Source: an uncultured Rivularia sp. | GTDB lineage: Bacteria; Cyanobacteriota; Cyanobacteriia; Cyanobacteriales; Nostocaceae | Length of the DNA: 32,000 nucleotides | Reading direction: 5' to 3' | Assembly: GCA_963665115.1 (NCBI GenBank) | Contig: OY762007.1 | Coordinates: 3,066,053 to 3,098,052, forward strand | Part shown: piece after piece, positions 689 through 26,636 of the stretch | Position numbering within the stretch: the stretch's first letter is position 1 | Layout of the letters: each line of letters begins with the position of its first letter | Position numbers and translations under genes: made by a program | Notes under the pieces: generated by a model | Databases searched by the model: none | Seen by the model: only the letters and a program-made list of their open reading frames with translations | Told to the model about the DNA's origin: nothing

Positions 689-3061
689 TTAATAGGTAAG
701 TTTGCGTTTTTCAATTTCAGCGATAGGTAAGAGTAAGGTTTCTTCGATGTAGGAACGAATTTTGGAAGTTACATAGGAATCGCTATTTAGGCAGTCTACT
801 ATTACCTTATTAGCAAAACAGTATTTATGTAATAAATTCTGTTGTTCTTTGTTGAACTGCCAATCATAACCAATATTGCGATGTTCAATCATGATTTCTC
901 TTAAGAGTTTAGTCCACTTCTGACCGTTGACTTTCCACCATACACAAAATTTATCTTTATCCACTTCCGAATTAGGTAAATCATTACTCATTTTTTGCAA
1001 TGCTTGCTTTAATTTAGGTTCAAATGCACGGGTAAGACTTGCTATCAAAGAAATATATAAACACTCGCTAAAACTTTCCTTTTTAAGATTGTAAGGGGGA
1101 TTCATTATAGATGAATAAAATAAAGCTAAAATAAGACTACAATCTAAAAGTAAGTTTTTAGTATAAGTTGGATGAACAGAAGAATCATTTACCGCATCTA
1201 CTATTGGGATAATATTACGTTCTAAGGATGGATCTATATTAAATTGAGGCAAACAAACTTGTGTATCCCACAAATAATAACAGATACGAACACCGGCTGG
1301 TTTATAACTATCTGTGACAGAAAGAGATTTATCTTTTAACCATCCTAAATACTGTTGAAACTTTTCATTCCTAGCTAAAAGTTCATCAACCTGCTTTTTC
1401 ATCAACAATAATAAACAGTCAGCATTTGGCAACATCTCAACTGTCAGTAGAAATACTTCTTGCCATCTAGATTCATCAATATGGCTGGCAAGACTTTGCA
1501 AATCTTTATCATCTAAAGAATATGGATTACAGCTATTAACTATTTTTCTCGCGGTAAAATACTCCTGAAACGTCAAATGGGAAAATGAGTAAATTTCTCT
1601 TGCTCTTTCTACGAACAATCCATGTTGAGCTTCAATTGACTTGAGTACAGCTTCACTATCAAGCTCTAGTGCTTTTGAATCTGTTTTTGCATCTGGTAAG
1701 TTACGAATATAATCAGCAATATATCGTTCAATATCTTTTTGTTTGAAAAAATAATTTTTATTCTCAAATGTAGTAAAAGCAACTTCACTCAATAAATCTT
1801 CTTTACGCTGAACAGATAGCTTCTTATAAACTTGTTCTCTAACAATTCCACGTTTTGCATCCCATTTTCTTAATAATGTATGGGTTGCTCTTTTATACAA
1901 TTCTGCACGTTCAGCAGGAAAATCACCTGAATCTTCAAATTCTAAGCATAGTAACGTTAGCAATAAAGGATTTGTAGCTAATTCTTTTATTTGCTTATTT
2001 TTCTTGAGTTGGCCAATAAATTTATCAGATAATTCCAATTCTTTAGTATTAAACCACTTATCTACGAATATCCGAATCTGCTTATCATCAAAATCGGCTA
2101 TTTCCACTTCTGTAAATTCTTCAAAAGTGTATTCACTAGCTGCAATCCTACAGGTTATAACAAATTGATTCTTGTAATATTTGAATAAATTTTTAATCTG
2201 TCTTAATACCCGCTGTATATCTTCTTCTCTGACTTCATCTAAGCCATCAAGACAAAAAAATGTTCTACCTTGTTTTAGTAAATTATCTACTTGAGCAGAG
2301 TTAATCTTATTGTTAACAAAAGTTTGAATAATAAATTCTGAAAAATTAGGGTGATTCGGGGTTTCAGCAAATTCTTTTAGCGTTATGAAAATTGGTACTT
2401 GATTAGCTTGTAACTCACCTCTTATGCATTGAATGGCTAAATACTTTAAAAATGTTGTTTTACCTGCTCCGGGTTTACCTAATACCATCAGTTTAGAATT
2501 GTTTTTTACAGCTTCTAAACCTGGTACTCGCTTTTGTTCAATATCCGTCAATCCATAGCGGTTAAAGTCGTGAAATTCTAGGTCAAAATTTTGTTGTAGT
2601 TTAGCTATTTCTAACCGTCTACGCCCTGTGATTTTCTCTAAAATATTTACATCAGTATAGATATTATTTAAGCCGACAGGCTGCGTCATATCTAGTACCC
2701 GCATAGTGCCGCAGCGTTGCTGAATCGTTTCGTAAAATTGCGATCGCAATTTTTCCACTAAATCATCTATCTGTTCTTGCGTACACTCAAAATTCTCAGT
2801 TGTTAAATTATTTACTTTTGCGAATTTAGTAGTAAGCCAGTTGAGCAATTTTGTTTGTTTACCCGTACCTTTACCTTTAATACTAAACTTTTTATAAACG
2901 TTGCTCATTCTAGTTGTAAAGGCACTTTCGGAGATACATAGTTTGTCTGCTATTTCCTCCCGTGTATTCTTGCTTCTAAACAAAGCTACAAAAGTTTCCT
3001 CTTGTTCTGGTGAAAGCTCGTACTTACGAGCCATTTCAGTTAAAAAATCATGCGGTAACAT
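689..3061 (-). CDS. STAND NTPase: N-terminal LuxR/sigma70-region-4-like HTH + NACHT domain + about 350-aa helical C-terminal region without recognisable repeats
   Basis: 790-aa ORF. HTH-like LSPEQEETFVALF..REEIADKLCISESAFTTRMSNVYKKFSI. Walker A GKPGAGKTTFLKYLA, Walker B FFCLDGLDEV, sensor-like FVITCR, and the NACHT-typical NPLLLTLLCLEFE. Confidence 0.85.
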   Translation of the reverse strand: MLPHDFLTEMARKYELSPEQEETFVALFRSKNTREEIADKLCISESAFTTRMSNVYKKFSIKGKGTGKQTKLLNWLTTKFAKVNNLTTENFECTQEQIDDLVEKLRSQFYETIQQRCGTMRVLDMTQPVGLNNIYTDVNILEKITGRRRLEIAKLQQNFDLEFHDFNRYGLTDIEQKRVPGLEAVKNNSKLMVLGKPGAGKTTFLKYLAIQCIRGELQANQVPIFITLKEFAETPNHPNFSEFIIQTFVNNKINSAQVDNLLKQGRTFFCLDGLDEVREEDIQRVLRQIKNLFKYYKNQFVITCRIAASEYTFEEFTEVEIADFDDKQIRIFVDKWFNTKELELSDKFIGQLKKNKQIKELATNPLLLTLLCLEFEDSGDFPAERAELYKRATHTLLRKWDAKRGIVREQVYKKLSVQRKEDLLSEVAFTTFENKNYFFKQKDIERYIADYIRNLPDAKTDSKALELDSEAVLKSIEAQHGLFVERAREIYSFSHLTFQEYFTARKIVNSCNPYSLDDKDLQSLASHIDESRWQEVFLLTVEMLPNADCLLLLMKKQVDELLARNEKFQQYLGWLKDKSLSVTDSYKPAGVRICYYLWDTQVCLPQFNIDPSLERNIIPIVDAVNDSSVHPTYTKNLLLDCSLILALFYSSIMNPPYNLKKESFSECLYISLIASLTRAFEPKLKQALQKMSNDLPNSEVDKDKFCVWWKVNGQKWTKLLREIMIEHRNIGYDWQFNKEQQNLLHKYCFANKVIVDCLNSDSYVTSKIRSYIEETLLLPIAEIEKRKLTY

Positions 3062-13410: not shown

Positions 13411-16400
13411 TTAATTTTGTAATTTATGTAATTCATTCATTACATCTTTATAAACATAAGTATGACCTTGAGCTTTTGATAATTCTGCTGCTTTTTGTAA
13501 TTCTTGAATAGCTTTTTGTTTATTCCCTAATTTAATTAGAGTTAATCCTCTTTGGTAGTAATAAAAATCAGCATTATTAGGATTTATTTCAATAGCTTTG
13601 CTATAATCAGCTAATGCTAAATTATATTTTTTCTGTTTTCGGTAAGAATTTGCTCGCGATATATAATTAGAAGCAGGATAGTTACTAGAATCAAGTTCAA
13701 TAATTTTACTGTAATCAGCTATAGCTAAATCCCATTTTTCTTGCTCTTTGTAAATCTGTGCCCGATAACTGTAAGCAATAAGATTTTCAGGCTCAAGTTC
13801 AATAACTTTACTCAAATCAGGTATAGCTAAATCTTTTTGTTTTTGGCTATTATAAATAGTTGCTCTTTTAAGATAAGCTTCAGTATTGTGAGGATTCAGT
13901 TCAATAACTTTACTCCAATCAGCTAAAGCTAAGTTATATTGATACCGTTCATCATAGTATTTAGCTCTATTGTAATAAGCTTCAGAATTATCCGGATTAC
14001 TTTGAATTGCTAAATCCAATTGTTTCTTTTTTTGTATATCCTTTTGTATGGATTGGAGTAAAATATTTGCATAACTATATGAAGTAGTTTGACCTTGAGC
14101 TTTAAATAGTTGGGCTGCTTTATAGTAATCTTGAACAGCTTTATTTTTATCCTTAAGTTTTTCATACATAAATCCTCGGTAAGCGTATGCTTCACCATTT
14201 TGAGGATTGAGTTGAATTGCTTTATTATAATCAGCTAGCGCTAATTCCGATTTATACCGTTTATTATAAATATGACCACGGTAAATATAAGCTCTAACAT
14301 TCTGAGGGTCAAGTTTTAAGATTTCGTCTAAGTTAGCTTTAGCCAAATCCATTTTTTCTTGGATTACGTAAATTAATGCTCGATTAAAATAAGCTTCAAT
14401 ATCTTGAGGTTCAAGTTTAATTATTTTATTGTAATAAGCTATTGCAGAATTAAACTGTTGTTTCTCGATTTTTAATTCTCTTGAAACATATGAAAATGGA
14501 TCGTAATAATCAAAACCAAACTTTATTGCTTTTTTGATATCAGCCATTGCTAAATCCCACTTTTGTTGTTCGAGATAAATAAGCCCACGGTAAGCGTAAA
14601 TTTTATCTGACTTAGGATTAAGTTTAATGACTTTATTGTAATCAGCCAGTGCTAAATCCCATTTTTCCTGGCTTCGATAACTATTTGCTCGCTTAAAATA
14701 AGGTTCAAAATTTTTAGGCTTAAGTTGAATCCATTTACTATAATCGGCTATCGCTAAATCCCATTTTTGCTGCTCTACATATAAACGCCCTCGGAGCTGG
14801 TAAGCATCATCTGATTTAGGATTCAATTCAATTGCTTTATCAAAATCAGCTTTAGCTAAATCCCATTTTTTCTGTGCCATATACATAATTCCTCTCCAAG
14901 AGTAATTAATTGCACTAGGATTTAGTTTGATTGCTTCTGTCATCGTTGCTTGTGCTTCTGTATAGCGTTGTAAATAAATCAAAGTTGTCCCTTTCACAAA
15001 ATATCCGCTAGGATTTTTTGGCTGAAGTAGAATTGTTTTATTTGCTGCGATTAATGCTTTATCATATTGTTCTATGTTCATGTACATAAAACTCAGTATT
15101 CGCCAAGCACCAACATAATCAGGTTTGAGTTTTACCGCTTGCTCAAATGTTTCTACAGACTCTTTATATTTCTCTTGGCTTGAAAAGTTTAAACCTTTAC
15201 CAAAATAAGCTAGGTAAGCGAAAGATGATTTACGTTTAATTACTTCATCAAAGGCTTTATCTGCTTCTTCATATCTTCCTAAACGCAACAGTTGGTTTCC
15301 TCTTTCTAACCATTTGTCAGCTGTTGCATTTCCACCTGAAACCTCTGCTGTTAGTGCTGCTTTTTTAATAGATTCAATTTGTTGAGGATTCAGTTGAGGT
15401 GGTCTATTATTTTCTAAATTTTGCGGTTTTACACCCAATCTGGGAACCAACCCTAAAAAGGTACTTACAGGAATCCCCAAACTAAATCCTATCTGAATTT
15501 GACATTTAGAACCAGAACCCCCACAGTCTCCTGTTTTTGAATCATAGGCTTCTTCCCCTTCAGCACGTCCGTGAATACCTATTACTCGCCCTTGTGAATT
15601 TAAAACTGGACCACCACTCATTCCACCATAAGTGATGCTGGTGTAAACTAACTCATATCCTCCAGTTAAGGAATTGATACCTTTTGAACCTAAAGAGCCT
15701 ACTCCTGATCGCGAAAAGTCGGAATCTTTTACTAATAATAATCCCTCTTCTTTACTAGTAATTTGCCCGACAGTAAACCGCCAAGGAGAATCATTACCTA
15801 ATTTGGGATATCCCGCAGTAAACATATAGTCATCTTCATTAGGATTGTAATTTGCAAGAGTTGCTATTTGATAATCTCCAGAACTTTTAAATTTAACTAC
15901 CGCTAAATCAACCCCTTCCTCAATTTTGATGCTGCTTTTATCTACAGAATATTTATTTCCATCTGGTGCAAGTATTTCATAATTAAATCCACCGCATGGC
16001 TTTGTTGCATCTACTCTTTCACACAACACATGAGCCGATGTTAAAACTGTGTAATTATTCCCTTCTCTAGCAATAATTATTCCCGAACCATTGGCGTTAC
16101 TACTGCTATCAATTCTGACAGTAAATTGTTTAGCTTTTTGTTCTAAATCCTTTACCCATTTTGGATAGTCTGGTTCCAGTATTGTATTTTTACCTTCTGG
16201 AAAAGGCAATTTATAAGCAGTCAAAACATCACCATCAACCCACGTTAAAACAGTTGAAATCGGAATTCCCCAACTCAACTTTCTCATTTCTCTAATTTCT
16301 GCTTGATTCGGACGTTTACCGTTTTGATAAACATAACCAGAATTTAAAATAGGATAAGCACTTTTACCATTTATCCCTACAAGTTCACCCATTGAATTAA

Positions 16401-16971
16401 GAATTGCACCACCGCTCATTCCTTGTTCGATGTTGCTGCTGTAACCGATTTCGTATCCTTCTTTTAAGTTAGAAGTCTTTTTAACTTCTCCTTCGCTAAA
16501 TATAATATTTCCCGTGGAACCAGAAAAACCCGCAGCAACTACGGGAGTATTAATTTCAGGAGTAGTTTTAGCAATTTCTGATAAACAATAACTTTGACTG
16601 CTTTGGAATTTTAATAAAGTTATATCTGATTTTTTAAATTTATTTTGCGGTACAATTTCTGCTGAATAGGTTTTACCGTCGGCAGTTTGCAATGTAATCG
16701 AATTAACTCCTTGGATAACGTGAGAATTGGTTAACACTAAATAATTATTTCCTTGTTTACCGATAAGCGTTCCCGAACCACCGTTGCGATCGCCGATGAT
16801 TTTTACTGTGATTTTATTGGCTAGGGTTTGTAATTGTTTTGTTGAATAAAATTCCTCTTCTCGTTCGATTCTGCAAATTGAATTTTGAGCAATGGAAGCA
16901 GGAGCGGCTTTGATGGGGATGGGGATTTGGAGCAGGAGTAGGGAGGAAAGAAAGATTAGATTGCGGTTCAT
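13411..16971 (-). CDS. Secreted protein with two trypsin-like (S1/Trypsin_2) serine protease domains followed by a long TPR array
   Basis: 1186-aa ORF with signal-peptide-like MNRNLIFLSSLLLLQIPIPIKAAPA. Domain 1: LTNSHV / DITLLKF / GMSGGAILN. Domain 2: LTSAHV / DLAVVKF / GGMSGGPVLN. More than a dozen 34-aa repeats of the type W(D)LAxADYxKxIxLNP. Confidence 0.85.
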   Translation of the reverse strand: MNRNLIFLSSLLLLQIPIPIKAAPASIAQNSICRIEREEEFYSTKQLQTLANKITVKIIGDRNGGSGTLIGKQGNNYLVLTNSHVIQGVNSITLQTADGKTYSAEIVPQNKFKKSDITLLKFQSSQSYCLSEIAKTTPEINTPVVAAGFSGSTGNIIFSEGEVKKTSNLKEGYEIGYSSNIEQGMSGGAILNSMGELVGINGKSAYPILNSGYVYQNGKRPNQAEIREMRKLSWGIPISTVLTWVDGDVLTAYKLPFPEGKNTILEPDYPKWVKDLEQKAKQFTVRIDSSSNANGSGIIIAREGNNYTVLTSAHVLCERVDATKPCGGFNYEILAPDGNKYSVDKSSIKIEEGVDLAVVKFKSSGDYQIATLANYNPNEDDYMFTAGYPKLGNDSPWRFTVGQITSKEEGLLLVKDSDFSRSGVGSLGSKGINSLTGGYELVYTSITYGGMSGGPVLNSQGRVIGIHGRAEGEEAYDSKTGDCGGSGSKCQIQIGFSLGIPVSTFLGLVPRLGVKPQNLENNRPPQLNPQQIESIKKAALTAEVSGGNATADKWLERGNQLLRLGRYEEADKAFDEVIKRKSSFAYLAYFGKGLNFSSQEKYKESVETFEQAVKLKPDYVGAWRILSFMYMNIEQYDKALIAANKTILLQPKNPSGYFVKGTTLIYLQRYTEAQATMTEAIKLNPSAINYSWRGIMYMAQKKWDLAKADFDKAIELNPKSDDAYQLRGRLYVEQQKWDLAIADYSKWIQLKPKNFEPYFKRANSYRSQEKWDLALADYNKVIKLNPKSDKIYAYRGLIYLEQQKWDLAMADIKKAIKFGFDYYDPFSYVSRELKIEKQQFNSAIAYYNKIIKLEPQDIEAYFNRALIYVIQEKMDLAKANLDEILKLDPQNVRAYIYRGHIYNKRYKSELALADYNKAIQLNPQNGEAYAYRGFMYEKLKDKNKAVQDYYKAAQLFKAQGQTTSYSYANILLQSIQKDIQKKKQLDLAIQSNPDNSEAYYNRAKYYDERYQYNLALADWSKVIELNPHNTEAYLKRATIYNSQKQKDLAIPDLSKVIELEPENLIAYSYRAQIYKEQEKWDLAIADYSKIIELDSSNYPASNYISRANSYRKQKKYNLALADYSKAIEINPNNADFYYYQRGLTLIKLGNKQKAIQELQKAAELSKAQGHTYVYKDVMNELHKLQN

Positions 16972-17545: not shown

Positions 17546-17874
17546 TTTAGGAAGCTAACAAAAATGGTGAAAGATATAACATTGCCAGAGTTGGGTTGCA
17601 CTCCGCTTAACCCAACCTACGAATTCATTAACTACGAACAATTGACAATAACGTGAGTCCTATTATCTATTTAACTAGTATAAAAACAACAAAAGAACCA
17701 TTGTTTTACCGTTCGAGGTAGCAATATAAGTGACAATTACTACAAAAAAATATTGAAACAGTATTTCTCTTAATATTTTATAGTTCCAATTTGACAATTT
17801 TATTTATTCAAATAGTAATAAACGTACAAATAAATATTAGAATATAAAGTTCGTCCAGGCGTGTAATTCCTCCC

Positions 17875-20322
17875 ATGACCGCTACATCCCAACCTCCGTT
17901 TTCTCCAGAAGAAATAGCCAAAGAAGGCATAAAACCCCAAGAATACCAAGAAATCGTCAACAGATTAGGTCGTCATCCTAACAAAGCCGAATTAGGAATG
18001 TTTGGCGTAATGTGGTCGGAACATTGCTGTTATAAAAATTCTCGACCTTTATTAAAACAGTTTCCTACAACCGGAGAGCGCATCCTTGTAGGTCCCGGTG
18101 AAAATGCTGGTGTTGTAGACTTGGGTGATGGTTTACAACTCGCTTTTAAAATTGAATCTCACAATCATCCTTCAGCAGTGGAACCCTTTCAAGGTGCTGC
18201 AACGGGAGTTGGTGGTATTCTCAGAGATATTTTTACAATGGGTGCGCGTCCGATCGCGGTGTTGAATTCACTGCGTTTCGGTAATTTAGAAGATGCCAAA
18301 ACCCAAAGATTATTTAGCGGTGTGGTATCGGGAATTGCTCATTACGGTAACTGCGTGGGCGTTCCTACGGTTGGTGGTGAAGTCTATTTTGACCCCGCTT
18401 ACTCTGGCAATCCTTTAGTAAACGTTATGGCGTTGGGATTAATGGAAACGCCAGAAATTGTCAAATCCGGTGCATCAGGTATCGGCAATCCGGTACTGTA
18501 TGTCGGTTCTACTACCGGGCGCGACGGTATGGGAGGAGCAAGTTTTGCCAGTGCAGAATTAACCGACGAATCAGTTGACAATCGTCCAGCAGTGCAGGTT
18601 GGCGACCCATTTTTAGAAAAATCCTTAATTGAAGCTTGTTTAGAAGCCTTTAAAACAGGTGCGGTAGTGGCAGCACAAGATATGGGTGCGGCAGGTATTA
18701 CCTGTTCCACTTCCGAAATGGCCGCAAATGGTGGTGTCGGTGTGGAATTTGATTTAGATAAAATTCCCAACCGCGAAACCGGAATGATTCCTTACGAATA
18801 TCTACTCAGCGAATCTCAAGAGAGAATGCTGTTTGTTGCCAAAAAAGGTAGAGAGCAAGAATTAATAGATATTTTTGTGCGTTGGGGATTAAATGCAGTC
18901 GTTGCCGGAAAAGTCATAGAAGAACCCATAGTAAGGATTCTTTACCAAGGAAAAGTCGCAGCAGAAATACCTGCCACAGCTTTAGCAGAAAATACCCCGA
19001 TTTATAACCGAGAATTATTAAAAGAACCTCCAGAATATGCCCGCAAAGCTTGGGAATGGACACCCGATTCCTTACCAGCTTGCACTCATGAAGGTATTGA
19101 AATTAAAGGAAAATTGCAAACCTGGAACGATATTCTGCTAACTTTACTTGATACTCCCAGCATAGCTTCAAAAAGTTGGGTTTATCGTCAATACGACCAT
19201 CAAGTGCAGAATAACACCGTTATGTTACCCGGTGGTGCGGATGCGGCAATTGTGCGGTTGCGCCCAGTTGGGGAAGACAAGGAGACAAGGAGACAAGGAG
19301 ACAAGGAGATGAGGAGAGAAGAAAATTCCAATGCCCAATCCCCTATGCCCCATGCCCAAAAAGGTGTTGCTGCAACGGTTGATTGCAATTCTCGTTACGT
19401 TTATCTCGATCCTTACGAAGGTGCAAAGGCTGTAGTAGCTGAAGCCGCACGCAATCTTAGCTGTGTAGGTGCAGAACCTTTAGCGGTTACAGATAACTTG
19501 AATTTTGGCAGCCCGGAAAAACCGATTGGTTATTGGCAGTTATCAGAAGCTTGTCGGGGATTAGCGGAAGGTTGTCAAGAATTATCGACTCCGGTAACTG
19601 GAGGAAATGTCTCTCTTTATAATGAGACTTTTGATACGAACGGCAATCCAAAACCAATTTATCCGACTCCCGTTGTCGGAATGGTAGGATTAATTCCTGA
19701 TTTAACAAAGATTTGCTCCCAAGCTTGGCAATCGGAAGGCGATATAATTTATCTCCTCGGTTTACCAATTCAATCGGAAACCGAATTAGGAGGAACGGAG
19801 TATTTAGCTACCATTCACGATACTGTTGCCGGAAAACCCCCAAGGGTAGATTTTGGCTTGGAACGTCGCGTACAGCAAGCTTGCCGTAAAGGTATTCGCC
19901 AAGGTTGGGTGCGTTCCGCTCATGATTGCGCTGAAGGTGGAATTACCGTCGCTTTAGCTGAATGCTGTATTAATAGTCATCTCGGTGCTGAGATTAAATT
20001 TGAATTACCAGCTGATTTACCAGCAAGCAATCCTCAGAGATGGGATGAAATACTTTTTGGTGAAGGAGGAGCAAGAATTATTGTTTCAGTTGCGTTAGCC
20101 AAGCAACAAATTTGGGAATCATACCTACAAGAACAATTAAACGATCGCTGGCAAATAATTGGCAAGGTCGGAAATTTCCAAACTGGTTTGGGGGTCTTAA
20201 CCACTGATAACAAAACTTTAATAAACGTTACGATAGAAGATGTAAGCAATCGCTTTCATCAAGCAATTACCAGGCGTTTAGCCGTTCCCCAACAGCTAAA
20301 TACTCAAATGACAATTAAATAA
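17875..20322 (+). CDS. purL: Phosphoribosylformylglycinamidine synthase subunit PurL
   Basis: 815-aa ORF with family motifs along its whole length ([31 protein letters not shown]). It carries a ~31-aa STRR-encoded insert. Confidence 0.95.
19276..19361. repeat. STRR inside the purL coding sequence: octamer GACAAGGA x4-6 followed by heptamers CCAATGC/CCAATCC/CCTATGC/CCCATGC
   Basis: Periodicity read directly. It translates in frame as [30 protein letters not shown]. Confidence 0.85.
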
Positions 20323-20461
20323 CTGGCAACTTACTATTAGTATCGCTGAGCATAAATACTGTACTGTGGTAAATAGATGGTTAAGAATTAATTAAGTTTT
20401 ATCTAACTATCCAGTTTCACAATCCCAGTGGCTTGACATCATCATCAGGAGCATAGCTAGA

Positions 20462-21964
20462 ATGATTCCCCAAAATTCCAAAGCCGTCACTTCGGATAAA
20501 TACGCCCAAACTAATCCCAATCCAATTAATCAAGATGAACGTCCTGACAAGCAAGAAGAAGCTTGCGGGGTTTTTGGCGTTTACGCACCCAAAGAAGACG
20601 TTGCTAGACTAACTTATTTCGGATTGTATGCCCTCCAGCATAGAGGTCAAGAATCCGCTGGGATTGCCACTTTTGAAGACAAAAAGGTACACCTGCATAA
20701 AGATATGGGTTTAGTATCTCAAGTCTTCAACGAAACTATCCTTGATGACTTACCAGGTAGTATTGCTGTCGGTCATACCCGTTATTCCACCACAGGTTCA
20801 AGCCATGTAGCCAATGCCCAACCTGCTATTGTCCAAACTCGACTAGGTGAAATAGCCCTTGCACACAACGGTAATTTAGTCAACACAAAGCAGTTGCGCG
20901 ACGAACTGCTCGAAAAAAGCTGTAACCTAACTACCACAACCGACTCAGAAATGATTGCCTTGGCGATCGCCGAAGAATTAAACGACGGTTCCCAATTATT
21001 GGAAGCTGCGATTCGGGCTTTTCATCGTTGCCGAGGAGCCTTTAGTTTAGTAATCGGTTCCAGTGAAGGTGTAATGGGAGTGCGCGATCCAAACGGCATT
21101 CGTCCCCTGGTAATTGGAACTTTAGAGGGAAGTCCAACACGTTACGTTTTAGCATCCGAAACCTGCGCTTTGGATATTATTGGCGCTAAATACCTGCGAG
21201 ATGTAGAGCCAGGTGAATTGGTTTGGATTACCGAATCAGGTTTAGCCTCTTTTCAGTGGAGTAAAAAGCAAGAAAGAAAGCTATGTATCTTTGAAATGTT
21301 TTACTTTGCTCGTCCCGATAGCATCATGAACGAGGAAAGCTTGTATAGCTACCGGATGAGATTAGGGCGACGATTAGCACAAGAATCTCTTGTAGATGCC
21401 GATATAGTTTTTGGAGTTCCAGATTCGGGAATCCCTGCTGCAATTGGTTTCTCAGAAGTTTCCGGTATACCTTACGTAGAAGGATTGATCAAAAATCGTT
21501 ACGTCGGCAGAACCTTCATTCAGCCTACCCAAGCAATGCGCGAATCGGGTATAAGAATGAAACTAAATCCACTTAAAGACGTATTATCCGGGAAAAGAGT
21601 AATCATCATTGATGATTCAATTGTGCGAGGTACCACCAGTCGCAACTTAGTAAAATCCTTGTACGAAGCGGGTGCAACCGAAGTACATATGCGAATTTCT
21701 TCCCCTCCAGTTACCCATCCCTGTTTTTACGGTATTGATACCGATAGTCAAGATCAATTAATTGCTGCAACCAAATCAGTAAAAGAAATTGCCAAACACT
21801 TAGAAGTAGACAGTCTGGCATATCTAAGCTGGAAAGGAATGTTAGAAGAAACCAAACAAGATACCAATAGTTTTTGTTCCGCGTGTTTCACCGGAGATTA
21901 TCCCGTACCAGTACCCGAAAGACTCAAACGTTCTAAATTAATTTTAGAAGAAGCAGTTGTTTAA
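20462..21964 (+). CDS. purF: Amidophosphoribosyltransferase PurF
   Basis: 500-aa ORF with the Ntn cysteine context EACGVFGVYA, the PRPP-binding loop VIIIDDSIVRGTT, and 4Fe-4S cysteines (CFYGID, CSACF). Confidence 0.95.
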   Translation: MIPQNSKAVTSDKYAQTNPNPINQDERPDKQEEACGVFGVYAPKEDVARLTYFGLYALQHRGQESAGIATFEDKKVHLHKDMGLVSQVFNETILDDLPGSIAVGHTRYSTTGSSHVANAQPAIVQTRLGEIALAHNGNLVNTKQLRDELLEKSCNLTTTTDSEMIALAIAEELNDGSQLLEAAIRAFHRCRGAFSLVIGSSEGVMGVRDPNGIRPLVIGTLEGSPTRYVLASETCALDIIGAKYLRDVEPGELVWITESGLASFQWSKKQERKLCIFEMFYFARPDSIMNEESLYSYRMRLGRRLAQESLVDADIVFGVPDSGIPAAIGFSEVSGIPYVEGLIKNRYVGRTFIQPTQAMRESGIRMKLNPLKDVLSGKRVIIIDDSIVRGTTSRNLVKSLYEAGATEVHMRISSPPVTHPCFYGIDTDSQDQLIAATKSVKEIAKHLEVDSLAYLSWKGMLEETKQDTNSFCSACFTGDYPVPVPERLKRSKLILEEAVV

Positions 21965-22020
21965 TAATTTTGCATTAAATTGGGTTTGTTTTTTCAGAAC
22001 ACTATAAATCACTTATGTAG

Positions 22021-22046
22021 AGACGTAGCAGTGCTACGTCTTTTTG
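22021..22046 (+). terminator. Candidate intrinsic terminator of purF
   Basis: AGACGTAGCA-g-TGCTACGTCT followed by TTTTT, 57 nt after the purF stop. Confidence 0.55.
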
Positions 22047-22049
22047 ATT

Positions 22050-22240
22050 ATGTAAAGTACATTCGGACGGGCAGGGATGCCCATCCCACAAGAGTTGTAG
22101 TATAACTGGTTCCCAGCCTCCCTCTATAACTGGTTCCCAGTCTCTGGCTGGGAACCTATTGCTTGAGGCTCTGCCTCCAATAAATACGCGAGGCAGAAGC
22201 TCGAAAACTGCATTCCCAGGTGAAACCTGGAAGTAACTCT
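22050..22240. repeat. Cluster of small dispersed hairpin repeats
   Basis: GGGATGCCCATCCC; GGTTCCCAG..CTGGGAACC (22132-22156); GAGGCTCTGCCTC..GAGGCAGAAGCTC (22165-22202); CCAGGtgaaaCCTGG. Same family as 200-293. ORF 22002..22244 is a translation artefact of these repeats. Confidence 0.55.
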
Positions 22241-22338
22241 TCACTCCTAACTAATAATTAATAAATCCTCAATTTTGATGGAATTAATATAGTCATTTAT
22301 GTAATATGTAGTGAAATTGCGCTCTTTTAAAACCACTT

Positions 22339-22758
22339 ATGGAACCGATAACCGCTGCAACTATCGCCACCCTTGCTTTTACCAAAGCCTTTGAAAAGAC
22401 GATTGAAAAATTTACTGAAGCAACCTGGAGTAAAATTGAAGCGCTACGCAAGAAGATTTGGCAGAAATTAAGCGGAAATAAACAAGCGCAAAAAGTTTTA
22501 ACTGCGGCTGAAACTGGTTCAAAAGAAGATTTGAAATTAGTTGCTCAATTTTTGGAGCAAGAAATGGAATGGGATAAAAACTTTGCTCAAGAAGTACAAA
22601 CTTTAGCTCGTGAGATCGATCAAGAAATTAATATCGGTCAAATACAAGGGCAAAACGTGCAAAATGTTTATGGTGGAGAAGCGCAACAAAATAATGCAAA
22701 TAACACCAATGCACCAGTAATTCAAGGTGGTAGCGGACACAATATTACATTTAATTGA
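22339..22758 (+). CDS. 139-aa helical protein/domain with a hydrophobic N-terminal helix and a Q/N/G-rich C-terminal motif. It is BELL-like, a putative NLR-associated effector module, in frame with the downstream NB-ARC ORF.
   Basis: MEPITAATIATLAFTKAF.. followed by charged helices. The C-terminus is INIGQIQGQNVQNVYGGEAQQNNANNTNAPVIQGGSGHNITFN, then TGA at 22756-22758. The family assignment is from memory and was not computed. Confidence 0.55.
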   Translation: MEPITAATIATLAFTKAFEKTIEKFTEATWSKIEALRKKIWQKLSGNKQAQKVLTAAETGSKEDLKLVAQFLEQEMEWDKNFAQEVQTLAREIDQEINIGQIQGQNVQNVYGGEAQQNNANNTNAPVIQGGSGHNITFN

Positions 22759-25700
22759 CTACAGTCGTCGGCAGGGGAACCGACAAAGTATCATCCCATT
22801 AAATATATACCGAAATTTGGCAGCGATAACTTTGTCGGAAGACAAGATGAACTTGCCAAAATTCACGATAAGTTTTCAGAAACAAACAATAAAGTCGCCA
22901 TTTCTTCTGTATCTGGTATGGGTGGTGTTGGAAAAACAGAGTTAGCGACGCAGTATGCACGAAAACACGAAAATGATTATCCCGGTGGAATTTGCTGGTT
23001 AAATGTTAGAGGTACAAATTTAGCTGCGGGAATTATTCAATTTGTCCAACAGATGGGTTTGGAAGTTCCCCAAAAAGATTTCCAAGAAAATGCGCTGACT
23101 CTAACTCAACAAGTAGCTTGGTGTTGGCAACATTGGCAACCACCCGAAGGTTTTGTGTTGATAATATTAGATGATGTGACTGATTTAGAAGATATTTCTG
23201 AGTTACTACCATCTTTTCAGCGCTTCCGGGTTTTGATGACAACCAGGTTGCGAGATATCGACACTAATGTTGAGGAAATATCCCTTGATGTGTTGTTACC
23301 AGAGGAAGCTTTAGAATTATTCAAAAATTTAATTGGTGAAAAGAAAGTAAATAAAGAATTAGAAACAGCTAACGAACTATGTAAATGGTTGGGATATTTA
23401 CCTTTAGGGATAGAGTTAGTCGGAAGGTATATCAAGAAAAAACCTCCCCATTTTACTTTAAAGAAAATGTTGCAGCAGTTGCAAGAACAACGACTGTATC
23501 AAGAAGCGATGAATCCCCAGCAAAAAGGATTACGTACAGCCCAATTAGGAGTTTTAGACGCATTTGAATTAAGTTGGAAAGAACTCAATCCTACAACACA
23601 GGAGTTTGCTACATTATTAAGTCTATTTGCAGCAGATATTTTTGAGTGGCAATGGGTAGAATCGATAAGTAAATCCCTCAATTGGGATGAATCTGATGTT
23701 GAGGTAGCTATTGAGGAAGTTTACCAACGTTACTTGGTGCAGTCTTTAGAATATGAAGATGTATCTTACTATCAAATTCATCCTTTAATTCGAGAGTTTT
23801 TACAAGATAAATTAAAAGCATCTGCACAAATAAATGAGTTCAAACAAGCATTTACCAGCACTTTTATTGAAATTGCTCAAACAATTCCTGATTCAGTAAC
23901 CCTGGAATTTATTAACTCAGTCAAAAACGCTATTCCCCATTTAACAGAAGTCGCAGAAAATCATCTTGATGCACTCAGCGATGAAAATTTATATTGGGCT
24001 TTTACTGGTTTAACTAATTTTTACCAGGGACAAGGTTTATATGCTTTAGCTGAACCTTGGACACAGCAATGCGTATCAGAACTAAAATCCCGTTTGGGAG
24101 AAAATCATCCCTATTTTGCTACCAGCTTGAACAATTTAGCTGAACTCTACAGAAACATGGGAAGGTACGAAGAAGCTGAACCTATTTATATCCAAGCTTT
24201 GGAGTTAAGAAAACAGCTACTCGGAGTTAATCATCCCGATGTTGCAATGAGCTTGAACAATTTAGCTAATCTCTACCACTTGCAAGGAAAGTACGAAGCA
24301 GCAGAACCTCTTTATATTCAAGCATTGGAGTTATATAAACAGCTACAGGGAGTTAATCATCCCGATGTTGCAACCAGCTTGAACAATTTAGCTGAACTTT
24401 ACCGTTCTCAAGGAAAGTACGAAGCAGCAGAACCCCTTTATATTCAAGCTTTGGAGTTATATAAACAGCGACTCGGAGAAAATCATCCCCATGTTGCAAT
24501 GAGCTTGAACAATTTAGCTTTACTCTACGATTCTCAAGGAAAGTACGAACTAGCAGAACCCCTTTTTCTGCAAGCTTTGGAGTTATATAAACAGCTACTC
24601 GGAGAAAATCATCCCCATGTCGCAATGAGCTTGAACAATTTAGCTGAACTTTACCGTTCTCAAGGAAAGTACGAAGCAGCAGAACCCCTTTATATCCAAG
24701 CTTTGGAGTTAAGAAAACAGCTTCTCGGAGAAAATCATCCCGACACTGCAATGAGTTTGAACAATTTATCTCTACTCTACAACTCCCAAGGAAAGTACGA
24801 AGCAGCAGAAACCTCTTTTAATTCAAGCTTTGGAGTTAACAAAACAGCTACTCGGAGAAAACCATCCCCACGTTGCTATGAGCTTCAACAATTTAGCAGG
24901 ACTCTACAAATCCCAAGGAAGGTACGAGGAAGCAGAACCTCTTTATATCCAATCTTTGGAGTTAACAAAACAGCTACTCGGAGTTAATCATCCCCACACA
25001 GCAATGAGCTTGAACAATTTAGCTCTACTCTACAACTCCCAAGGAAGGTACGAAGCAGCAGAACCTCTTTTTATTCAAGCATTGCAGTTAAGAAAACAGC
25101 TACTCGGAGTAAATCATCCCGATGTTGCTACCAGCTTGAGCAGTTTAGCTTACCTCTACTACTCCCAAGGAAGGTACGAAGCAGCAGAACCACTTTTGAT
25201 TCAAGCATTGGAGTTATGTAAACAGCTACTCGGAGTTAATCATCCCGATGTCGCAACCATTTTGAACAATTTAGCTTTACTCTACAACTCTCAAGGAAGG
25301 TATGAAGCAGCAGAACCTCTTTTGATTCAAGCTTTGGAGTTAACAAAACAGCTACAGGGAGTTAATCATCCCTCCGTCGCAACCAGTTTGAACAATTTAG
25401 CTTTACTCTACAACTCTCAAGGAAGGTATGAAGCAGCAGAACCACTTTTGATTCAAGCATTGGAGTTAAGTAAACAGCTACAGGGAGTTAATCATCCCGA
25501 TGTCGCAACCAGTTTGAACAATTTAGCTTTACTCTACAACTCTCAAGGAAAGTACGAAGCAGCAGAACCTCTTTATATTCAAGCATTGGAGTTATATAAA
25601 CAGCTACAGGGAGTTAATCATCCCGATGTTGCAACCAGCTTGAACAATTTAGCTGAACTTTACCGTTCTCAAGGAAAGTACGAAGCAGCAGAACCTCTTT

Positions 25701-26203
25701 ATATTCAAGCATTGCAGTTAAGAAAACAGCTACTCGGAGTTAATCATCCCGACACAGCAGGCAGTTTGAACAATTTAGCTTTACTCTACGGTTCTCAAGG
25801 AAAGTACGAACTAGCAGAACCCCTTTTTCTGCAAGCTTTGGAGTTATATAAACAGCTACTCGGAGAAAATCATCCCCATGTCGCAATGAGCTTGAACAAT
25901 TTAGCTGCACTCTACTATTCTCAAGGAAGGTACGAAGAAGCTCAACCCCTTTATATCCAAGCTTTGGAGTTAAGAAAACAGCTTCTCGGAGAAAATCATC
26001 CCGACACTGCAATGAGTTTGAACAATTTAGCTTATCTCTACTTTTCCATCGGAAAGTACGAAGAAGCTGAACCTCTTTATATCCAAGCTGTTGAGATTGC
26101 GGAGCGGATTTTGGGAGAAAATCACCCCAATACGGTGCTTTATCGGAAAAATTTGGAATATTTACGCGCACAGCGGGGAGAAGGTGGAAGCAGCGAAGAA
26201 TAA
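22759..26203 (+). pseudogene. NB-ARC (AP-ATPase) + 17 x 42-aa TPR (KLC-type) NLR-like STAND protein. It has no own start codon upstream of the P-loop and one frameshift in the TPR array.
   Basis: The frame is open from 22759. It encodes FVGRQDELAKIH..VAISSVSGMGGVGKTELA (Walker A), LIILDDV (Walker B), LMTTR and GYLPLGIEL (GLPL). No ATG/GTG/TTG lies in frame between 22759 and 22917, and the first ATG (22918) is inside the P-loop. ORFs 22918..24987 and 24830..26203 join if one A of AAA 24809-24811 is removed (GAA CCT CTT TTA ATT CAA = EPLLIQ). Confidence 0.8.
24095..26170 (+). repeat. Tandem 126-nt coding repeats (17 TPR modules, LGxNHPxxAxSLNNLAxLYxSQGxYEAAEPLxIQALEL.KQL)
   Basis: The NHP codons recur every 126 nt from ~24106 to ~26123. 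Blocks of more than 130 nt are identical (24301-24432 = 25562-25693). Confidence 0.9.
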
Positions 26204-26239: not shown

Positions 26240-26636
26240 GTCATTGCGAATGTAGCGAAGCGAAATGTTAGCGGAGCGTGTCCGGAACGGACATAGCAAT
26301 CACAATAACTCGTTGGTGTTGAAGATGTTGGGATTGCTTCCTTCGTCGCAATGACGGAAACCGAGTTGTCATTGCGAGTGGAACGGAGTGGAACGAAGCA
26401 ATCGCAATAACTCGTTGGTGTTGAAGATGTTGGGATTGCTTCCTTCGTCGCAATGACAGAAACCGAGTTGTCATTGCGAGTGGAACGGAGTGGAACGAAG
26501 CAATCGCAATAACTCGTTGGTGTTGAAGATGTTGGGATTGCTTCCTTCGTCGCAATGACGGTTTGAGAGTTACTCGTTGGGATTGCTTCCTTCGTCGCTA
26601 TGACAGCTTCAAAATAACTCGTTGGTGATGACAGTT
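26240..26636. repeat. Tandem array of ~102-nt hairpin-forming units: 128-nt variant unit 26240-26367, units 26368-26469 and 26470-26571, and a degenerate tail to ~26636
   Basis: Units 2 and 3 are identical for ~92 nt. Each unit has nested inverted repeats, GTCATTGCGA/TCGCAATGAC and GAAGCAATC/GATTGCTTC. ORFs 26140..26640 and 26268..26555 are translation artefacts. Confidence 0.85.

What the first reader, a model, noticed from the sequence alone, without database searches (positions are those of the whole stretch)
22339..22920. A single in-frame TGA separates a BELL-like helical module with a Q/N/G-rich amyloid-like tail from a start-less NB-ARC/TPR NLR
Seen in sequence:
- ORF 22339..22758 and the NB-ARC ORF are in the same frame (both coordinates are 1 mod 3).
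- They are separated only by TGA at 22756-22758.
- The 53 codons between that TGA and the first ATG (22918) contain no ATG, GTG or TTG.
- Those codons already encode conserved NB-ARC N-terminal sequence (FVGRQDELAKIH, strand VAISSVSG).
- The ATG at 22918 is the M of the P-loop GMGGVGKT, so the NTPase cannot be made from its own start.

The upstream 139 aa begins with a hydrophobic helix (MEPITAATIATLAFTKAF). It ends (nt 22627-22755) in two pseudo-repeats, IGQIQGQNVQNVYGG and APVIQGGSGHNITFN.

From memory of published work on bacterial NLR-associated amyloid signalling: BELL-domain proteins carry C-terminal BASS motifs next to NLR genes, mainly in cyanobacteria and actinobacteria, and one motif class is RHIM-like with a hydrophobic-Q-x-G core. 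This locus looks like such a cell-death/defence module, but in an unusual state.

Three explanations are possible:
- a fused effector-NLR gene inactivated by a nonsense codon;
- a module in which the small effector is the default product and the full NLR arises only by TGA readthrough;
- an intermediate between the all-in-one and the two-gene architectures.
Basis: partly seen in the sequence, partly recalled or inferred. Interest (0 to 1): 0.85.

Follow-up and report, generated by a model that had tools for sequence, protein, structure and literature searches.

The report
Conserved leaky stop joining effector and NLR
A small cell-death-type protein gene and a bacterial immune-receptor (NLR) gene are separated by a single in-frame stop codon that, with an RNA hairpin 8 bases downstream, is conserved in about 80 cyanobacterial loci, so the receptor is most likely made only when ribosomes read through the stop.

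Summary
ORF 22339-22758 (139 aa) ends in TGA. The NB-ARC/TPR reading frame continues in the same frame. There is no ATG, GTG or TTG before the P-loop Met at 22918.

This is not a private nonsense mutation. In 80 distinct junctions from about 20 cyanobacterial genera the stop is kept (TGA 78, TAG 1, TAA 1). It is always preceded by a pyrimidine and followed by C. After an 8-nt spacer comes a 5-bp hairpin with abundant compensatory changes (98.8% paired, 17 stem variants).

Downstream codons show a coding signature well upstream of any start codon. The same junction precedes NB-ARC+TPR, NACHT+HEAT and other STAND NTPases.

The 139-aa protein is homologous (hhalign 99%) to the effector side of canonical two-gene amyloid-signalling pairs. 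Here, however, the NLR has no motif of its own.

Best explanation: programmed stop-codon readthrough gives abundant free effector and rare effector-NLR fusion. No protein evidence exists.

This copy also carries a 1-nt insertion in its TPR array (24809-24811), which is either a sequencing error or a real lesion. I found no description of this arrangement in the literature I searched.

The parts
22339..22758 (+). Small ORF (139 aa plus TGA): the default translation product.
   Evidence: One search found 203 homologues; the 120 listed are 107-149 aa.
22339..22650 (+). Bell-like alpha-helical domain (residues 1-104). It starts MEPIT and has a hydrophobic first helix.
   Evidence: AF2 places helices at residues 6-104 with pLDDT 70-91. 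hhalign gives 99.2-99.6% to effector proteins of canonical amyloid pairs. The MEPIS motif is described in 10.1101/2024.11.07.622273.
22627..22755 (+). Q/N/G-rich amyloid-motif-like tail (residues 97-139): NIGQIQGQNVQNVYGG...APVIQGGSGHNITFN.
   Evidence: The tail is conserved in alignment A1. It is disordered in the AF2 monomer. It aligns with the tail motif of the L106 small protein, which is repeated at that locus's NLR N-terminus.
22756..22758 (+). In-frame TGA, in the context T-TGA-C: the candidate recoding site.
   Evidence: In 80 distinct junctions the stop is TGA 78, TAG 1, TAA 1. The -1 base is always T or C, and the +4 base is C in 80/80.
22759..22766 (+). 8-nt spacer CTACAGTC (consensus CURSAGYC).
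   Evidence: +5 T 74/80, +8 A 79/80, +9 G 75/80, +11 C 80/80.
22767..22784 (+). RNA hairpin: stem GTCGG (22767-22771) pairs with CCGAC (22780-22784); loop CAGGGGAA (22772-22779).
   Evidence: RNAalifold predicts it de novo. 98.8% of cells are paired. One pair shows CG46/GC13/UG13/UA7/AU1 and another CG47/UA29. 0 of 500 shuffles reach the observed covariation. There are 17 stem sequence variants.
22775..22797 (+). Candidate pseudoknot stem 2: loop GGGA (22775-22778) with downstream TCCC (22794-22797).
   Evidence: 91.6% paired, with only a few compensatory cases (L014, L035, L059, L092), so this is inconclusive.
22759..22842 (+). Linker codons between the stop and the NB-ARC domain (LQSSAGEPTKYHPIKYIPKFGSDN...). 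They contain no start codon.
   Evidence: In codons 1-16, third positions are not more variable than first and second positions, which indicates an RNA-level constraint.
22843..23517 (+). NB-ARC NTPase domain. It begins 75 nt upstream of the first ATG.
   Evidence: Pfam PF00931, E 1.4e-22, residues 29-253 after the TGA, profile positions 2-233. From codon 17 to the P-loop, third-position variation exceeds first and second (54.1 vs 29.7/19.6 in one group; 44.9 vs 17.7/11.2 in the other).
22915..22938 (+). P-loop GMGGVGKT. Its Met (22918) is the first canonical start codon in frame after the TGA.
24115..26203 (+). TPR_10/TPR_12 sensor array: 16 near-identical 126-nt units starting at 24130.
   Evidence: Pfam; unit table.
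24809..24811 (+). A-run carrying one extra A (GAAACC, versus GAACC in the other units). This is a +1 frameshift that splits the TPR array into ORFs ending at 24987 and spanning 24830-26203.
   Evidence: The orthologue L004 has an uninterrupted, shorter array.

Best explanation
The region 22339-26203 is one translational unit with a programmed leaky stop.

**Proposed mechanism.**
- Most ribosomes terminate at UGA 22756-22758 and release a 139-aa protein. This protein is a Bell-like helical domain (predicted membrane-targeting) with a C-terminal amyloid-type motif.
- A minority of ribosomes decode the UGA with a near-cognate tRNA and continue in frame into the NB-ARC/TPR receptor. In bacteria this tRNA is usually tRNA-Trp (general knowledge).
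- The poor termination context (pyrimidine-UGA-C) and the hairpin, possibly a pseudoknot, 8 nt downstream would favour this.
- The readthrough product is an NLR carrying the whole effector and motif at its N-terminus.

**Why readthrough matters functionally (inferred).** The receptor has neither a start codon nor an amyloid motif of its own. Only the readthrough product could link ligand sensing to the effector. By analogy with HET-S/NWD2 and Bell/BASS pairs, ligand-induced oligomerisation would bring the N-terminal motifs together and nucleate the amyloid fold. That fold would then template the abundant free 139-aa protein and trigger membrane damage and cell death.

**Shown here.**
- The stop, its context and the hairpin are conserved.
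- The frame after the stop is coding.
- No start codon is available.
- The small protein is homologous to effectors of canonical pairs.
- The junction is reused with different NTPases.

**Inferred, not shown.** That readthrough occurs, its rate, which amino acid is inserted, amyloid templating and membrane activity.

**This copy.** The extra A at 24809-24811, if real, truncates the sensor after about 5.5 TPR units.
For: 1. **The stop is kept, and the NLR is always in frame with no stop between.** This holds in loci from Rivularia, Calothrix, Nostoc, Tolypothrix, Scytonema, Brasilonema, Fischerella, Iningainema, Kastovskya, Tumidithrix and others. It includes the positional orthologue L002 downstream of purL-purF and the finished genome of Rivularia PCC 7116.
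2. **Stop usage and context in 80 distinct junctions.** TGA 78, TAG 1, TAA 1; -1 base always a pyrimidine; +4 base C in 80/80. The distant two-gene relatives use a mix of TAA, TAG and TGA and lack this context. Inefficient termination at UGA followed by C is documented in bacteria (PMC5289835).
3. **Hairpin 8 nt after the stop.** RNAalifold predicts it de novo. It is 98.8% paired, with up to five pair types at one position, and 0 of 500 shuffles reach its covariation score. It has 17 stem variants. A pattern scan of 0.93 Mb on both strands gave only 7 chance hits outside the junctions.
4. **Codon-position pattern.** Synonymous-site variation is suppressed in codons 1-16 after the stop, as expected for an RNA element. 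From codon 17 onwards there is a clear coding signature, upstream of any start codon.
5. **No way to start the NLR on its own.** WIN, L003, L004 and L011 have no ATG, GTG or TTG before the P-loop Met. NB-ARC begins 75 nt before that Met. Gene callers resort to ATA or the P-loop ATG.
6. **Modular junction.** The same junction precedes NB-ARC+TPR, NACHT+HEAT+NCC-H, NB-ARC with other repeats, and AAA_16/NPHP3_N NTPases. It also follows different tail motifs.
7. **Link to canonical amyloid pairs.** The helical domain is homologous to effector proteins of canonical pairs, in which the NLR has its own Met and a copy of the motif. Close NLR paralogues also have their own Met and motif. The window's NLR part has neither.
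Against: - There is no protein, ribosome-profiling or reporter evidence.
- The hairpin is only 5 bp. Folding the window's sequence alone is not better than shuffles (-8.9 kcal/mol, z -0.13). The pseudoknot has few compensatory cases.
- To my knowledge, apart from SECIS/SelB, stimulation of readthrough by a downstream structure has not been established for bacterial ribosomes.
- One variant (L125) has GTG directly after the TGA and G at +4, which would allow termination-reinitiation. That copy also has a TAG inside NB-ARC.
- The helical module also occurs N-terminal to TIR, CHAT+TIR and GUN4 domains. It may therefore be an adaptor rather than, or as well as, an executioner.
- No true sense-codon version of this junction was found. 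The apparent W in P0132 came from gene calling with TGA read as Trp.
- In this window the TPR frameshift means that even readthrough would not give the full receptor, if the extra A is real.
Confidence: 0.68

Rival explanations
1. There are two separate polypeptides. Ribosomes always terminate at the TGA, and the NLR is started independently. This would be termination-coupled reinitiation or initiation at a non-canonical codon (CTG, ATA, ATT) just downstream. The hairpin would serve to retain or reposition the ribosome, or to process or stabilise the mRNA.
For: - L125 has GTG immediately after the TGA, with the hairpin kept.
- The codon after the stop is CTG in a minority of loci.
- The deposited Rivularia PCC 7116 annotation starts the NLR at ATA.
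- Canonical relatives use adjacent or overlapping ORFs that suggest translational coupling (10.1101/2020.01.06.895854).
Against: - The codon after the stop is CTA, which is not a start codon, in about two thirds of the junctions.
- Several loci have no ATG, GTG or TTG before the P-loop.
- I saw no Shine-Dalgarno-like sequence at a suitable distance when reading the sequence.
- An NLR started there would carry no amyloid motif, unlike every canonical relative, so it would have no evident link to the small protein.
- Independent initiation does not explain the selection for the weakest stop context, UGA-C.
Confidence: 0.15
2. The TGA encodes selenocysteine, and the downstream hairpin is a bacterial SECIS element.
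For: UGA followed by a nearby conserved hairpin is the bacterial SECIS layout (general knowledge).
Against: - Variants with TAG (L059) and TAA (L092) keep the hairpin and have long downstream ORFs.
- No Rfam match was found, even at E up to 10.
- The loop starts 13 nt after the UGA and begins with A or C rather than G, which does not fit the usual bacterial SECIS description (my recollection).
- There is no redox motif around the site, and no homologue has Cys at this position.
Confidence: 0.02
3. The TGA is a pseudogene lesion or a sequencing error: a fused effector-NLR gene inactivated by a nonsense mutation, or a base-calling error.
For: This copy also has a 1-nt insertion in its TPR array, so it may be decaying. 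Some related loci have short downstream ORFs (L009, L032, L035, L049).
Against: - The same stop lies at the same position in 80 distinct junctions from independent assemblies, including a finished genome.
- Downstream ORFs of 400-1400 aa are under purifying selection.
- A covarying RNA element accompanies the stop.
Confidence: 0.01

Closest known systems
Bell-domain/BASS effector + NLR gene pairs of filamentous bacteria (Dyrka et al. 2020, 10.1101/2020.01.06.895854); E. coli Bab/Agp (10.1101/2024.11.07.622273)
   Same: - A small helical protein of about 100 aa with a MEPIS-type N-terminus and a C-terminal G/N/Q-rich motif.
- A collinear NB-ARC/NACHT + repeat NLR immediately downstream.
- Occurrence in filamentous cyanobacteria.
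- Distant members of the same protein family are canonical pairs.
   Different: - The NLR has no start codon and no N-terminal copy of the motif.
- The two reading frames are joined in frame by one conserved stop with an RNA hairpin.
- The published screen required the motif at the NLR N-terminus, so it would not have picked up these loci. The paper does not mention stop codons or readthrough.
Fungal HET-S/NWD2 amyloid signalling, and 'all-in-one' NLRs
   Same: An NLR nucleates the amyloid fold of a pore-forming effector. The effector carries two motif segments. Both two-gene and fused architectures exist in one family.
   Different: This is an analogy, not homology shown here. In the present case a single gene would give both the free and the NLR-tethered forms.
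Viral and eukaryotic programmed readthrough signals: MuLV gag-pol (stop, 8-nt spacer, pseudoknot), alphavirus/tobravirus UGA-C(UA), human UGA-CUAG genes (10.64898/2026.07.14.738498 abstract)
   Same: - A conserved in-frame stop.
- UGA followed by CUA.
- A structured RNA about 8 nt downstream.
- A small major product and a rare extended product.
   Different: - The genes here are bacterial and chromosomal, translated by 70S ribosomes with RF2.
- The stem is only 5 bp.
- The comparison with MuLV and plant viruses rests on my own knowledge and was not tested.
Phage Qbeta A1 (readthrough) protein
   Same: Bacterial ribosomes read through a UGA to make a minor extended protein that is functionally required (own knowledge).
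   Different: That case is a phage gene. To my knowledge it has no conserved downstream hairpin and is not a cellular gene family.
Bacterial selenoprotein genes (UGA + SECIS)
   Same: An in-frame UGA with a hairpin shortly downstream.
   Different: TAG and TAA variants exist, there is no SECIS match, and the phylum is reported to lack Sec decoding.

Membership tests
Bell/BASS-NLR amyloid signalling pair | Alpha-helical N-terminal domain of about 100 aa with the conserved hydrophobic MEPIS-type first helix. | tested here: met
   The protein starts MEPITAATIATLAF. AF2 places helices at residues 6-104. The motif is named in 10.1101/2024.11.07.622273.
Bell/BASS-NLR amyloid signalling pair | Sequence or structure match to a Bell-domain model. 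| tested here: inconclusive
   No Pfam family matched. There was no PDB sequence hit and no Foldseek hit with E below 1. Indirect support: hhalign gives 99.2-99.6% to small proteins of canonical motif-sharing pairs.
Bell/BASS-NLR amyloid signalling pair | C-terminal G/N/Q-rich motif of about 25 aa that forms amyloid. | not testable with these tools
   The composition and conservation fit, and the tail is disordered in the monomer model. Fibril formation needs an experiment.
Bell/BASS-NLR amyloid signalling pair | The same motif at the N-terminus of the adjacent NLR. | tested here: not met
   The 24 residues between the TGA and FVGR (LQSSAGEPTKYHPIKYIPKFGSDN) contain no such motif and no start codon. 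The feature is met in distant relatives L106, L121, L097 and L100.
Bell/BASS-NLR amyloid signalling pair | A collinear NB-ARC or NACHT NLR with repeats within a few bases. | tested here: met
   NB-ARC E 1.4e-22; TPR_12 E 1.5e-99; distance 0 nt.
Programmed stop-codon readthrough | An in-frame stop conserved among homologues, with the downstream ORF under coding constraint and lacking its own start. | tested here: met
Programmed stop-codon readthrough | A leaky stop context. | tested here: met
   UGA in 78/80 and +4 C in 80/80. Inefficiency of UGA-C is described in PMC5289835.
Programmed stop-codon readthrough | A stimulatory RNA structure a few nucleotides downstream. | tested here: met
   The hairpin follows an 8-nt spacer and has strong covariation. 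That it actually stimulates readthrough was not tested. The pseudoknot is inconclusive.
Programmed stop-codon readthrough | The extended protein is actually produced. | not testable with these tools
   This needs a reporter, western blot, mass spectrometry or ribosome profiling.
Selenoprotein gene | UGA-specific recoding with a SECIS element and Sec machinery. | tested here: not met
   TAG and TAA variants exist. Rfam gave no hit. PMC1794560 reports no Sec-decoding trait in Cyanobacteria. The genomes themselves were not scanned for selA, selB or selC.
Nonsense-inactivated pseudogene | The stop is absent from orthologues, and the downstream frame is decaying. | tested here: not met
   The orthologues L002 and L004 keep the TGA. 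Downstream frames are long and constrained.

The most novel reading that the evidence does not exclude
This would be a dedicated, portable recoding cassette of cellular bacterial genes. It consists of Y-UGA-C, an 8-nt spacer, a hairpin or pseudoknot, and a conserved linker.

- It would be the first RNA-structure-assisted programmed stop-codon readthrough in bacterial chromosomal genes other than selenocysteine.
- It would turn one gene into a two-product amyloid signalosome: many free pore-forming effectors and a few NLR-tethered nucleators.
- It has been transplanted between different amyloid motifs and different STAND NTPases.

A further, less likely extension (about 0.1): the readthrough rate is itself an input. 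Infection-linked changes in termination, such as phage suppressor tRNAs, RF2 limitation or translation stress, would then raise the receptor dose.
Probability: 0.55. Interest if true: 0.9.

Novelty: new variant of a known kind. Interest (0 to 1): 0.85.

Why it matters
- **For translation.** Programmed stop-codon readthrough is well known in viruses and eukaryotes, but is hardly documented for cellular bacterial genes. This is a family of about 80 natural variants with a defined context and a covarying RNA element. That makes it directly testable whether bacterial ribosomes use structure-assisted readthrough, and the variants serve as a ready-made mutational series.
- **For bacterial immunity.** It suggests a third architecture for amyloid-controlled NLR signalling, besides two-gene and fused forms. 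In this form the effector-to-receptor ratio would be set at the translational level.
- **For annotation.** It explains why these NLRs are annotated with truncated or non-canonical starts. Motif-pair screens that require the motif at the NLR N-terminus would also not detect them.

Tried and rejected
- **Pfam and NCBIfam on the 139-aa protein and on 31 family members:** only sub-threshold noise.
- **PDB sequence search with the family profile:** nothing below E 0.03.
- **AF2 model against PDB with Foldseek:** no hit below E 2. The Bab structure 9H9V named in the preprint was not retrieved.
- **Rfam at E up to 10 on 22300-23000:** chance hits only, no SECIS.
- **tRNA scan:** no tRNA in the window, and no suppressor tRNA in 60 related loci.
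- **An apparent fused relative with Trp at the stop position (P0132):** I first took this as evidence for a TGG ancestor or Trp insertion. Its contig has TGA plus the hairpin, and the protein had been called with TGA read as Trp. I withdrew the point.
- **Junction-spanning profile search for true sense-codon versions:** it returned only short NLR N-terminal fragments with their own Met and motif.
- **A 3-bp mini-stem involving the GA of the stop, seen in the MFE fold:** rejected, because its middle pair is broken in about a quarter of the sequences.
- **+1 frameshifting as at prfB:** rejected, because the NLR is in the zero frame.
- **Simple promoter scan:** no sigma-70-like site on the + strand between purF and the small ORF.
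Full report
**1. The observation**

- An ATG at 22339 opens a 139-codon ORF that ends in TGA at 22756-22758.
- The next 53 codons are in the same frame, have no stop, and have no ATG, GTG or TTG.
- The first ATG, at 22918, is the Met inside the P-loop GMGGVGKT.
- Pfam places the start of the NB-ARC domain at residue 29 after the TGA, at profile position 2 (E 1.4e-22). This is 75 nt upstream of that ATG. TPR_12/TPR_10 repeats follow.
- A protein started at 22918 would lack the strand that precedes the P-loop.

Upstream lie purL (17875-20322) and purF (20462-21964), followed by two terminator-like hairpins.

**2.

The TPR array consists of 16 units of 126 nt, starting at 24130. The unit that begins at 24760 is 127 nt long. 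It reads GCAGCAGAAACC where the other units read GCAGCAGAACC. The extra A, in the run at 24809-24811, shifts the frame.
- The frame-1 ORF ends at 24987.
- The remaining ten TPR units lie in ORF 24830-26203.

A one-base change in a homopolymer inside near-identical repeats may be an assembly error or a real lesion. The orthologous locus L004 has a shorter, uninterrupted array.

**3. The stop is conserved, not private**

A search with the 139-aa protein found 203 homologues. The 120 listed are 107-149 aa long and come from filamentous cyanobacteria. I fetched 66 loci from species-representative genomes and 55 from metagenomes.

In nearly all close relatives the small ORF ends in TGA, and a STAND NTPase follows in the same frame with no stop between. 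These include:
- L002 (Calothrix CCY 0018), which lies downstream of purL-purF and aligns to window 17735-22058 at 89% identity, so it is a positional orthologue;
- L004, which shares the downstream flank;
- the finished genome of the cultured strain Rivularia sp. PCC 7116. There the deposited NLR gene is made to start at ATA, and another gene caller starts it at the P-loop ATG.

Several genomes carry two or three such loci.

Among 80 distinct junction sequences:
- the stop is TGA 78, TAG 1 (L059), TAA 1 (L092);
- the base before the stop is always T or C;
- the base after the stop is always C;
- the following bases fit CURSAGYC.

The more distant relatives, which are ordinary two-gene pairs, use a mix of TAA, TAG and TGA and lack this context. 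A review of the termination literature states that termination at UGA followed by C is inefficient in bacteria (PMC5289835).

**4. An RNA element follows the stop**

Eight nucleotides after the stop there is a 5-bp stem. In the window it is GTCGG (22767-22771) paired with CCGAC (22780-22784), with the loop CAGGGGAA.
- RNAalifold finds exactly this stem without guidance.
- On 81 sequences, 98.8% of cells are paired. One pair occurs as CG 46, GC 13, UG 13, UA 7, AU 1, and another as CG 47, UA 29. None of 500 column shuffles reaches the observed covariation, and sliding the partner by one column reduces pairing to 47-58%.
- There are 17 different stem sequences. The loop is 8 nt in 68 of the 77 junctions with a perfect stem.
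- The compensatory changes alter the encoded amino acids on both sides (Ser/Thr, Pro/Ala or Val, Arg/Gln). The constraint therefore acts on the nucleic acid.

In line with this, third codon positions are no more variable than first and second positions in codons 1-16 after the stop. From codon 17 to the P-loop they are two to four times more variable than first and second positions. The entropy sums are 54.1 against 29.7 and 19.6 in one group, and 44.9 against 17.7 and 11.2 in the other. The frame is thus translated well upstream of any start codon.

A second pairing, loop GGGA with UCCC nine bases after the stem, would make an H-type pseudoknot. It is 91.6% paired, but only a few sequences (L014, L035, L059, L092) show compensatory changes, so I leave it open.

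The window's hairpin alone does not fold better than shuffled sequence (z -0.13). The evidence for it is comparative, not energetic.

A pattern scan of all fetched DNA (0.93 Mb, both strands) found the element at the known junctions, at one further junction (L079) and at only seven chance sites.

**5. The junction is modular**

The same stop, spacer, hairpin and linker (LQSPERERxKLNPP) precede four kinds of NTPase:
- NB-ARC + TPR (most loci);
- NACHT + HEAT + NCC-H (L053, L060);
- NB-ARC with other repeats (L012);
- an AAA_16/NPHP3_N/TANC1-lid NTPase (L026).

The junction also follows different C-terminal tail motifs. It is hard to explain retention of a stop codon through such reshuffling unless the stop is functional.

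**6. What the small protein is**

No Pfam, NCBIfam or PDB match was found. The AlphaFold model is a helical bundle (helices between residues 6 and 104, pLDDT 70-91) with a disordered tail from residue 101. The N-terminus MEPIT... matches the 'MEPIS' motif that Ibarlosa et al. describe as common to Bell, Hell and Bab domains.

A profile search of 1.84 billion representative proteins found 467 relatives.
- Most are 130-155 aa.
- A few carry the module in front of TIR, CHAT+TRADD-N+TIR, GUN4 or NB-ARC+TPR.

Several of the more distant relatives are textbook two-gene amyloid pairs.
- In L106, L121 and L097 the small protein ends ...MNQTNYGGTNYQ.KTG..NTNFFGG.H.H. The adjacent NLR starts with its own Met and the same motif.
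- L100, L094 and L095 do the same with a GWQTKVEGGTAYIGEIH motif.

hhalign links the window's family to these small proteins with probabilities of 99.2% and 99.6%. In the first case the alignment runs into the tail. Close paralogues of the window's NLR also have their own Met and a Q/N/G-rich N-terminus (P0284).

So the family contains three architectures:
- the two-gene architecture described by Dyrka et al.;
- fused forms (P0257);
- the stop-joined form found here, in which the NLR has neither a start codon nor a motif.

**7. Mechanism**

The best reading is programmed readthrough.
- Most ribosomes stop and release the 139-aa protein.
- A few continue and make an NLR that carries the effector and motif at its N-terminus.

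Only that product could connect sensing to the effector by amyloid templating, as in HET-S/NWD2 and Bell/BASS systems. That last step is an inference by analogy. The geometry (stop, 8-nt spacer, structure) is that of known recoding stimulators such as the MuLV gag-pol signal, and UGA-CUA is a classical leaky context in viruses and human genes (own knowledge; abstract of 10.64898/2026.07.14.738498). I put this reading at about 0.68.

**8. Rivals**

- *Independent or coupled initiation of the NLR after the stop (0.15).* One variant (L125) has GTG right after the TGA. However, the usual codon is CTA, there is no start codon before the P-loop in several loci, and such an NLR would have no motif.
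- *Selenocysteine (0.02).* TAG and TAA variants keep the hairpin, Rfam finds no SECIS, and Sec decoding was not detected in Cyanobacteria (PMC1794560).
- *Pseudogene or sequencing error at the TGA (0.01).* This is excluded by the conservation. The TPR frameshift is a separate, open question for this copy.

**9. A correction made on the way**

P0132, a 386-aa 'fused' relative, showed Trp at the stop position. Its contig has TGA plus the hairpin, and the gene had been called with TGA read as Trp. I found no genuine sense-codon version of this junction.

**10. Novelty**

None of the following mention a stop codon, readthrough or recoding:
- the Bell/BASS paper;
- the two Aravind-group surveys of these conflict systems;
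- the 2026 STAND survey;
- the Bab/Agp preprint.

Full-text searches for readthrough in cyanobacteria or bacterial NLRs found nothing relevant. The components are known kinds: amyloid-linked NLR systems and programmed readthrough. Their combination, and a structured readthrough signal in cellular bacterial genes, appears to be undescribed in the library I could search.

Noticed in passing
window 24760-24886 (A-run 24809-24811): One of the 16 TPR units is 127 nt instead of 126, because of an extra A. This splits the NLR reading frame into ORFs 22918-24987 and 24830-26203. It is either a homopolymer assembly error or a real truncating mutation.
   Followed up: partly
window 26295-26600: Three tandem copies of a 102-nt unit (98% and 73% identical to the first) lie just downstream of the NLR stop. 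They contain internal inverted repeats (GGGATTGCTTC... / ...GAAGCAATC). This looks like a cyanobacterial interspersed repeat.
   Followed up: no
window 22019-22043 and 22101-22156: Two terminator-like hairpins follow purF. The second lies within a 24-nt-spaced direct repeat TATAACTGGTTCCCAG(C/T)CTC, and its arms read GGTTCCCAG...CTGGGAACC. It may be a small repeat element.
   Followed up: no
window 689-3061 (-) and 13411-16971 (-): The window holds two further conflict-system-type genes. One is a NACHT + NCH2 protein (790 aa). The other is a protein of 1186 aa with Trypsin_2 and TPR domains. They sit among housekeeping genes (nitrate assimilation, purL/purF).
   Followed up: partly
L123:5487 (Rivularia sp. 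PCC 7116, CP003549.1) and L124:3693: The deposited annotation starts the NLR at an ATA codon, and another gene caller starts it at the P-loop ATG. This illustrates that pipelines cannot place a start for these genes.
   Followed up: yes
L122:917-919 (protein P0132): A metagenome gene call translated the junction TGA as Trp, producing a false 'fused' protein in the protein databases. Similar entries could mislead searches for sense-codon variants.
   Followed up: yes
L125:387-440 and L125:~603: A variant junction follows a different upstream module. The TGA is followed directly by GTG (G at +4), and the hairpin is retained. The same copy has a TAG inside the NB-ARC domain where relatives have Tyr. 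It was seen in two independent samples.
   Followed up: partly
proteins P0127, P0178, P0134: The same helical module and motif occurs N-terminal to TIR_2, to CHAT + TRADD-like_N + TIR_2, and to GUN4 domains. The module may therefore act as an adaptor as well as an effector.
   Followed up: partly
L051:11293-11679 and L053:11189-11576: In two loci carrying the NACHT+HEAT version of the cassette, the tmRNA gene (ssrA) lies about 5 kb downstream on the opposite strand. This is probably coincidental synteny.
   Followed up: no
protein P0299: An NLR N-terminal fragment from another sample runs into the same out-of-frame translation of TPR repeats (GVKKTATRRKSS...FEQFSSTLQ) as the window does. Frameshifts or deletions in these repeat arrays may therefore be recurrent.
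   Followed up: no
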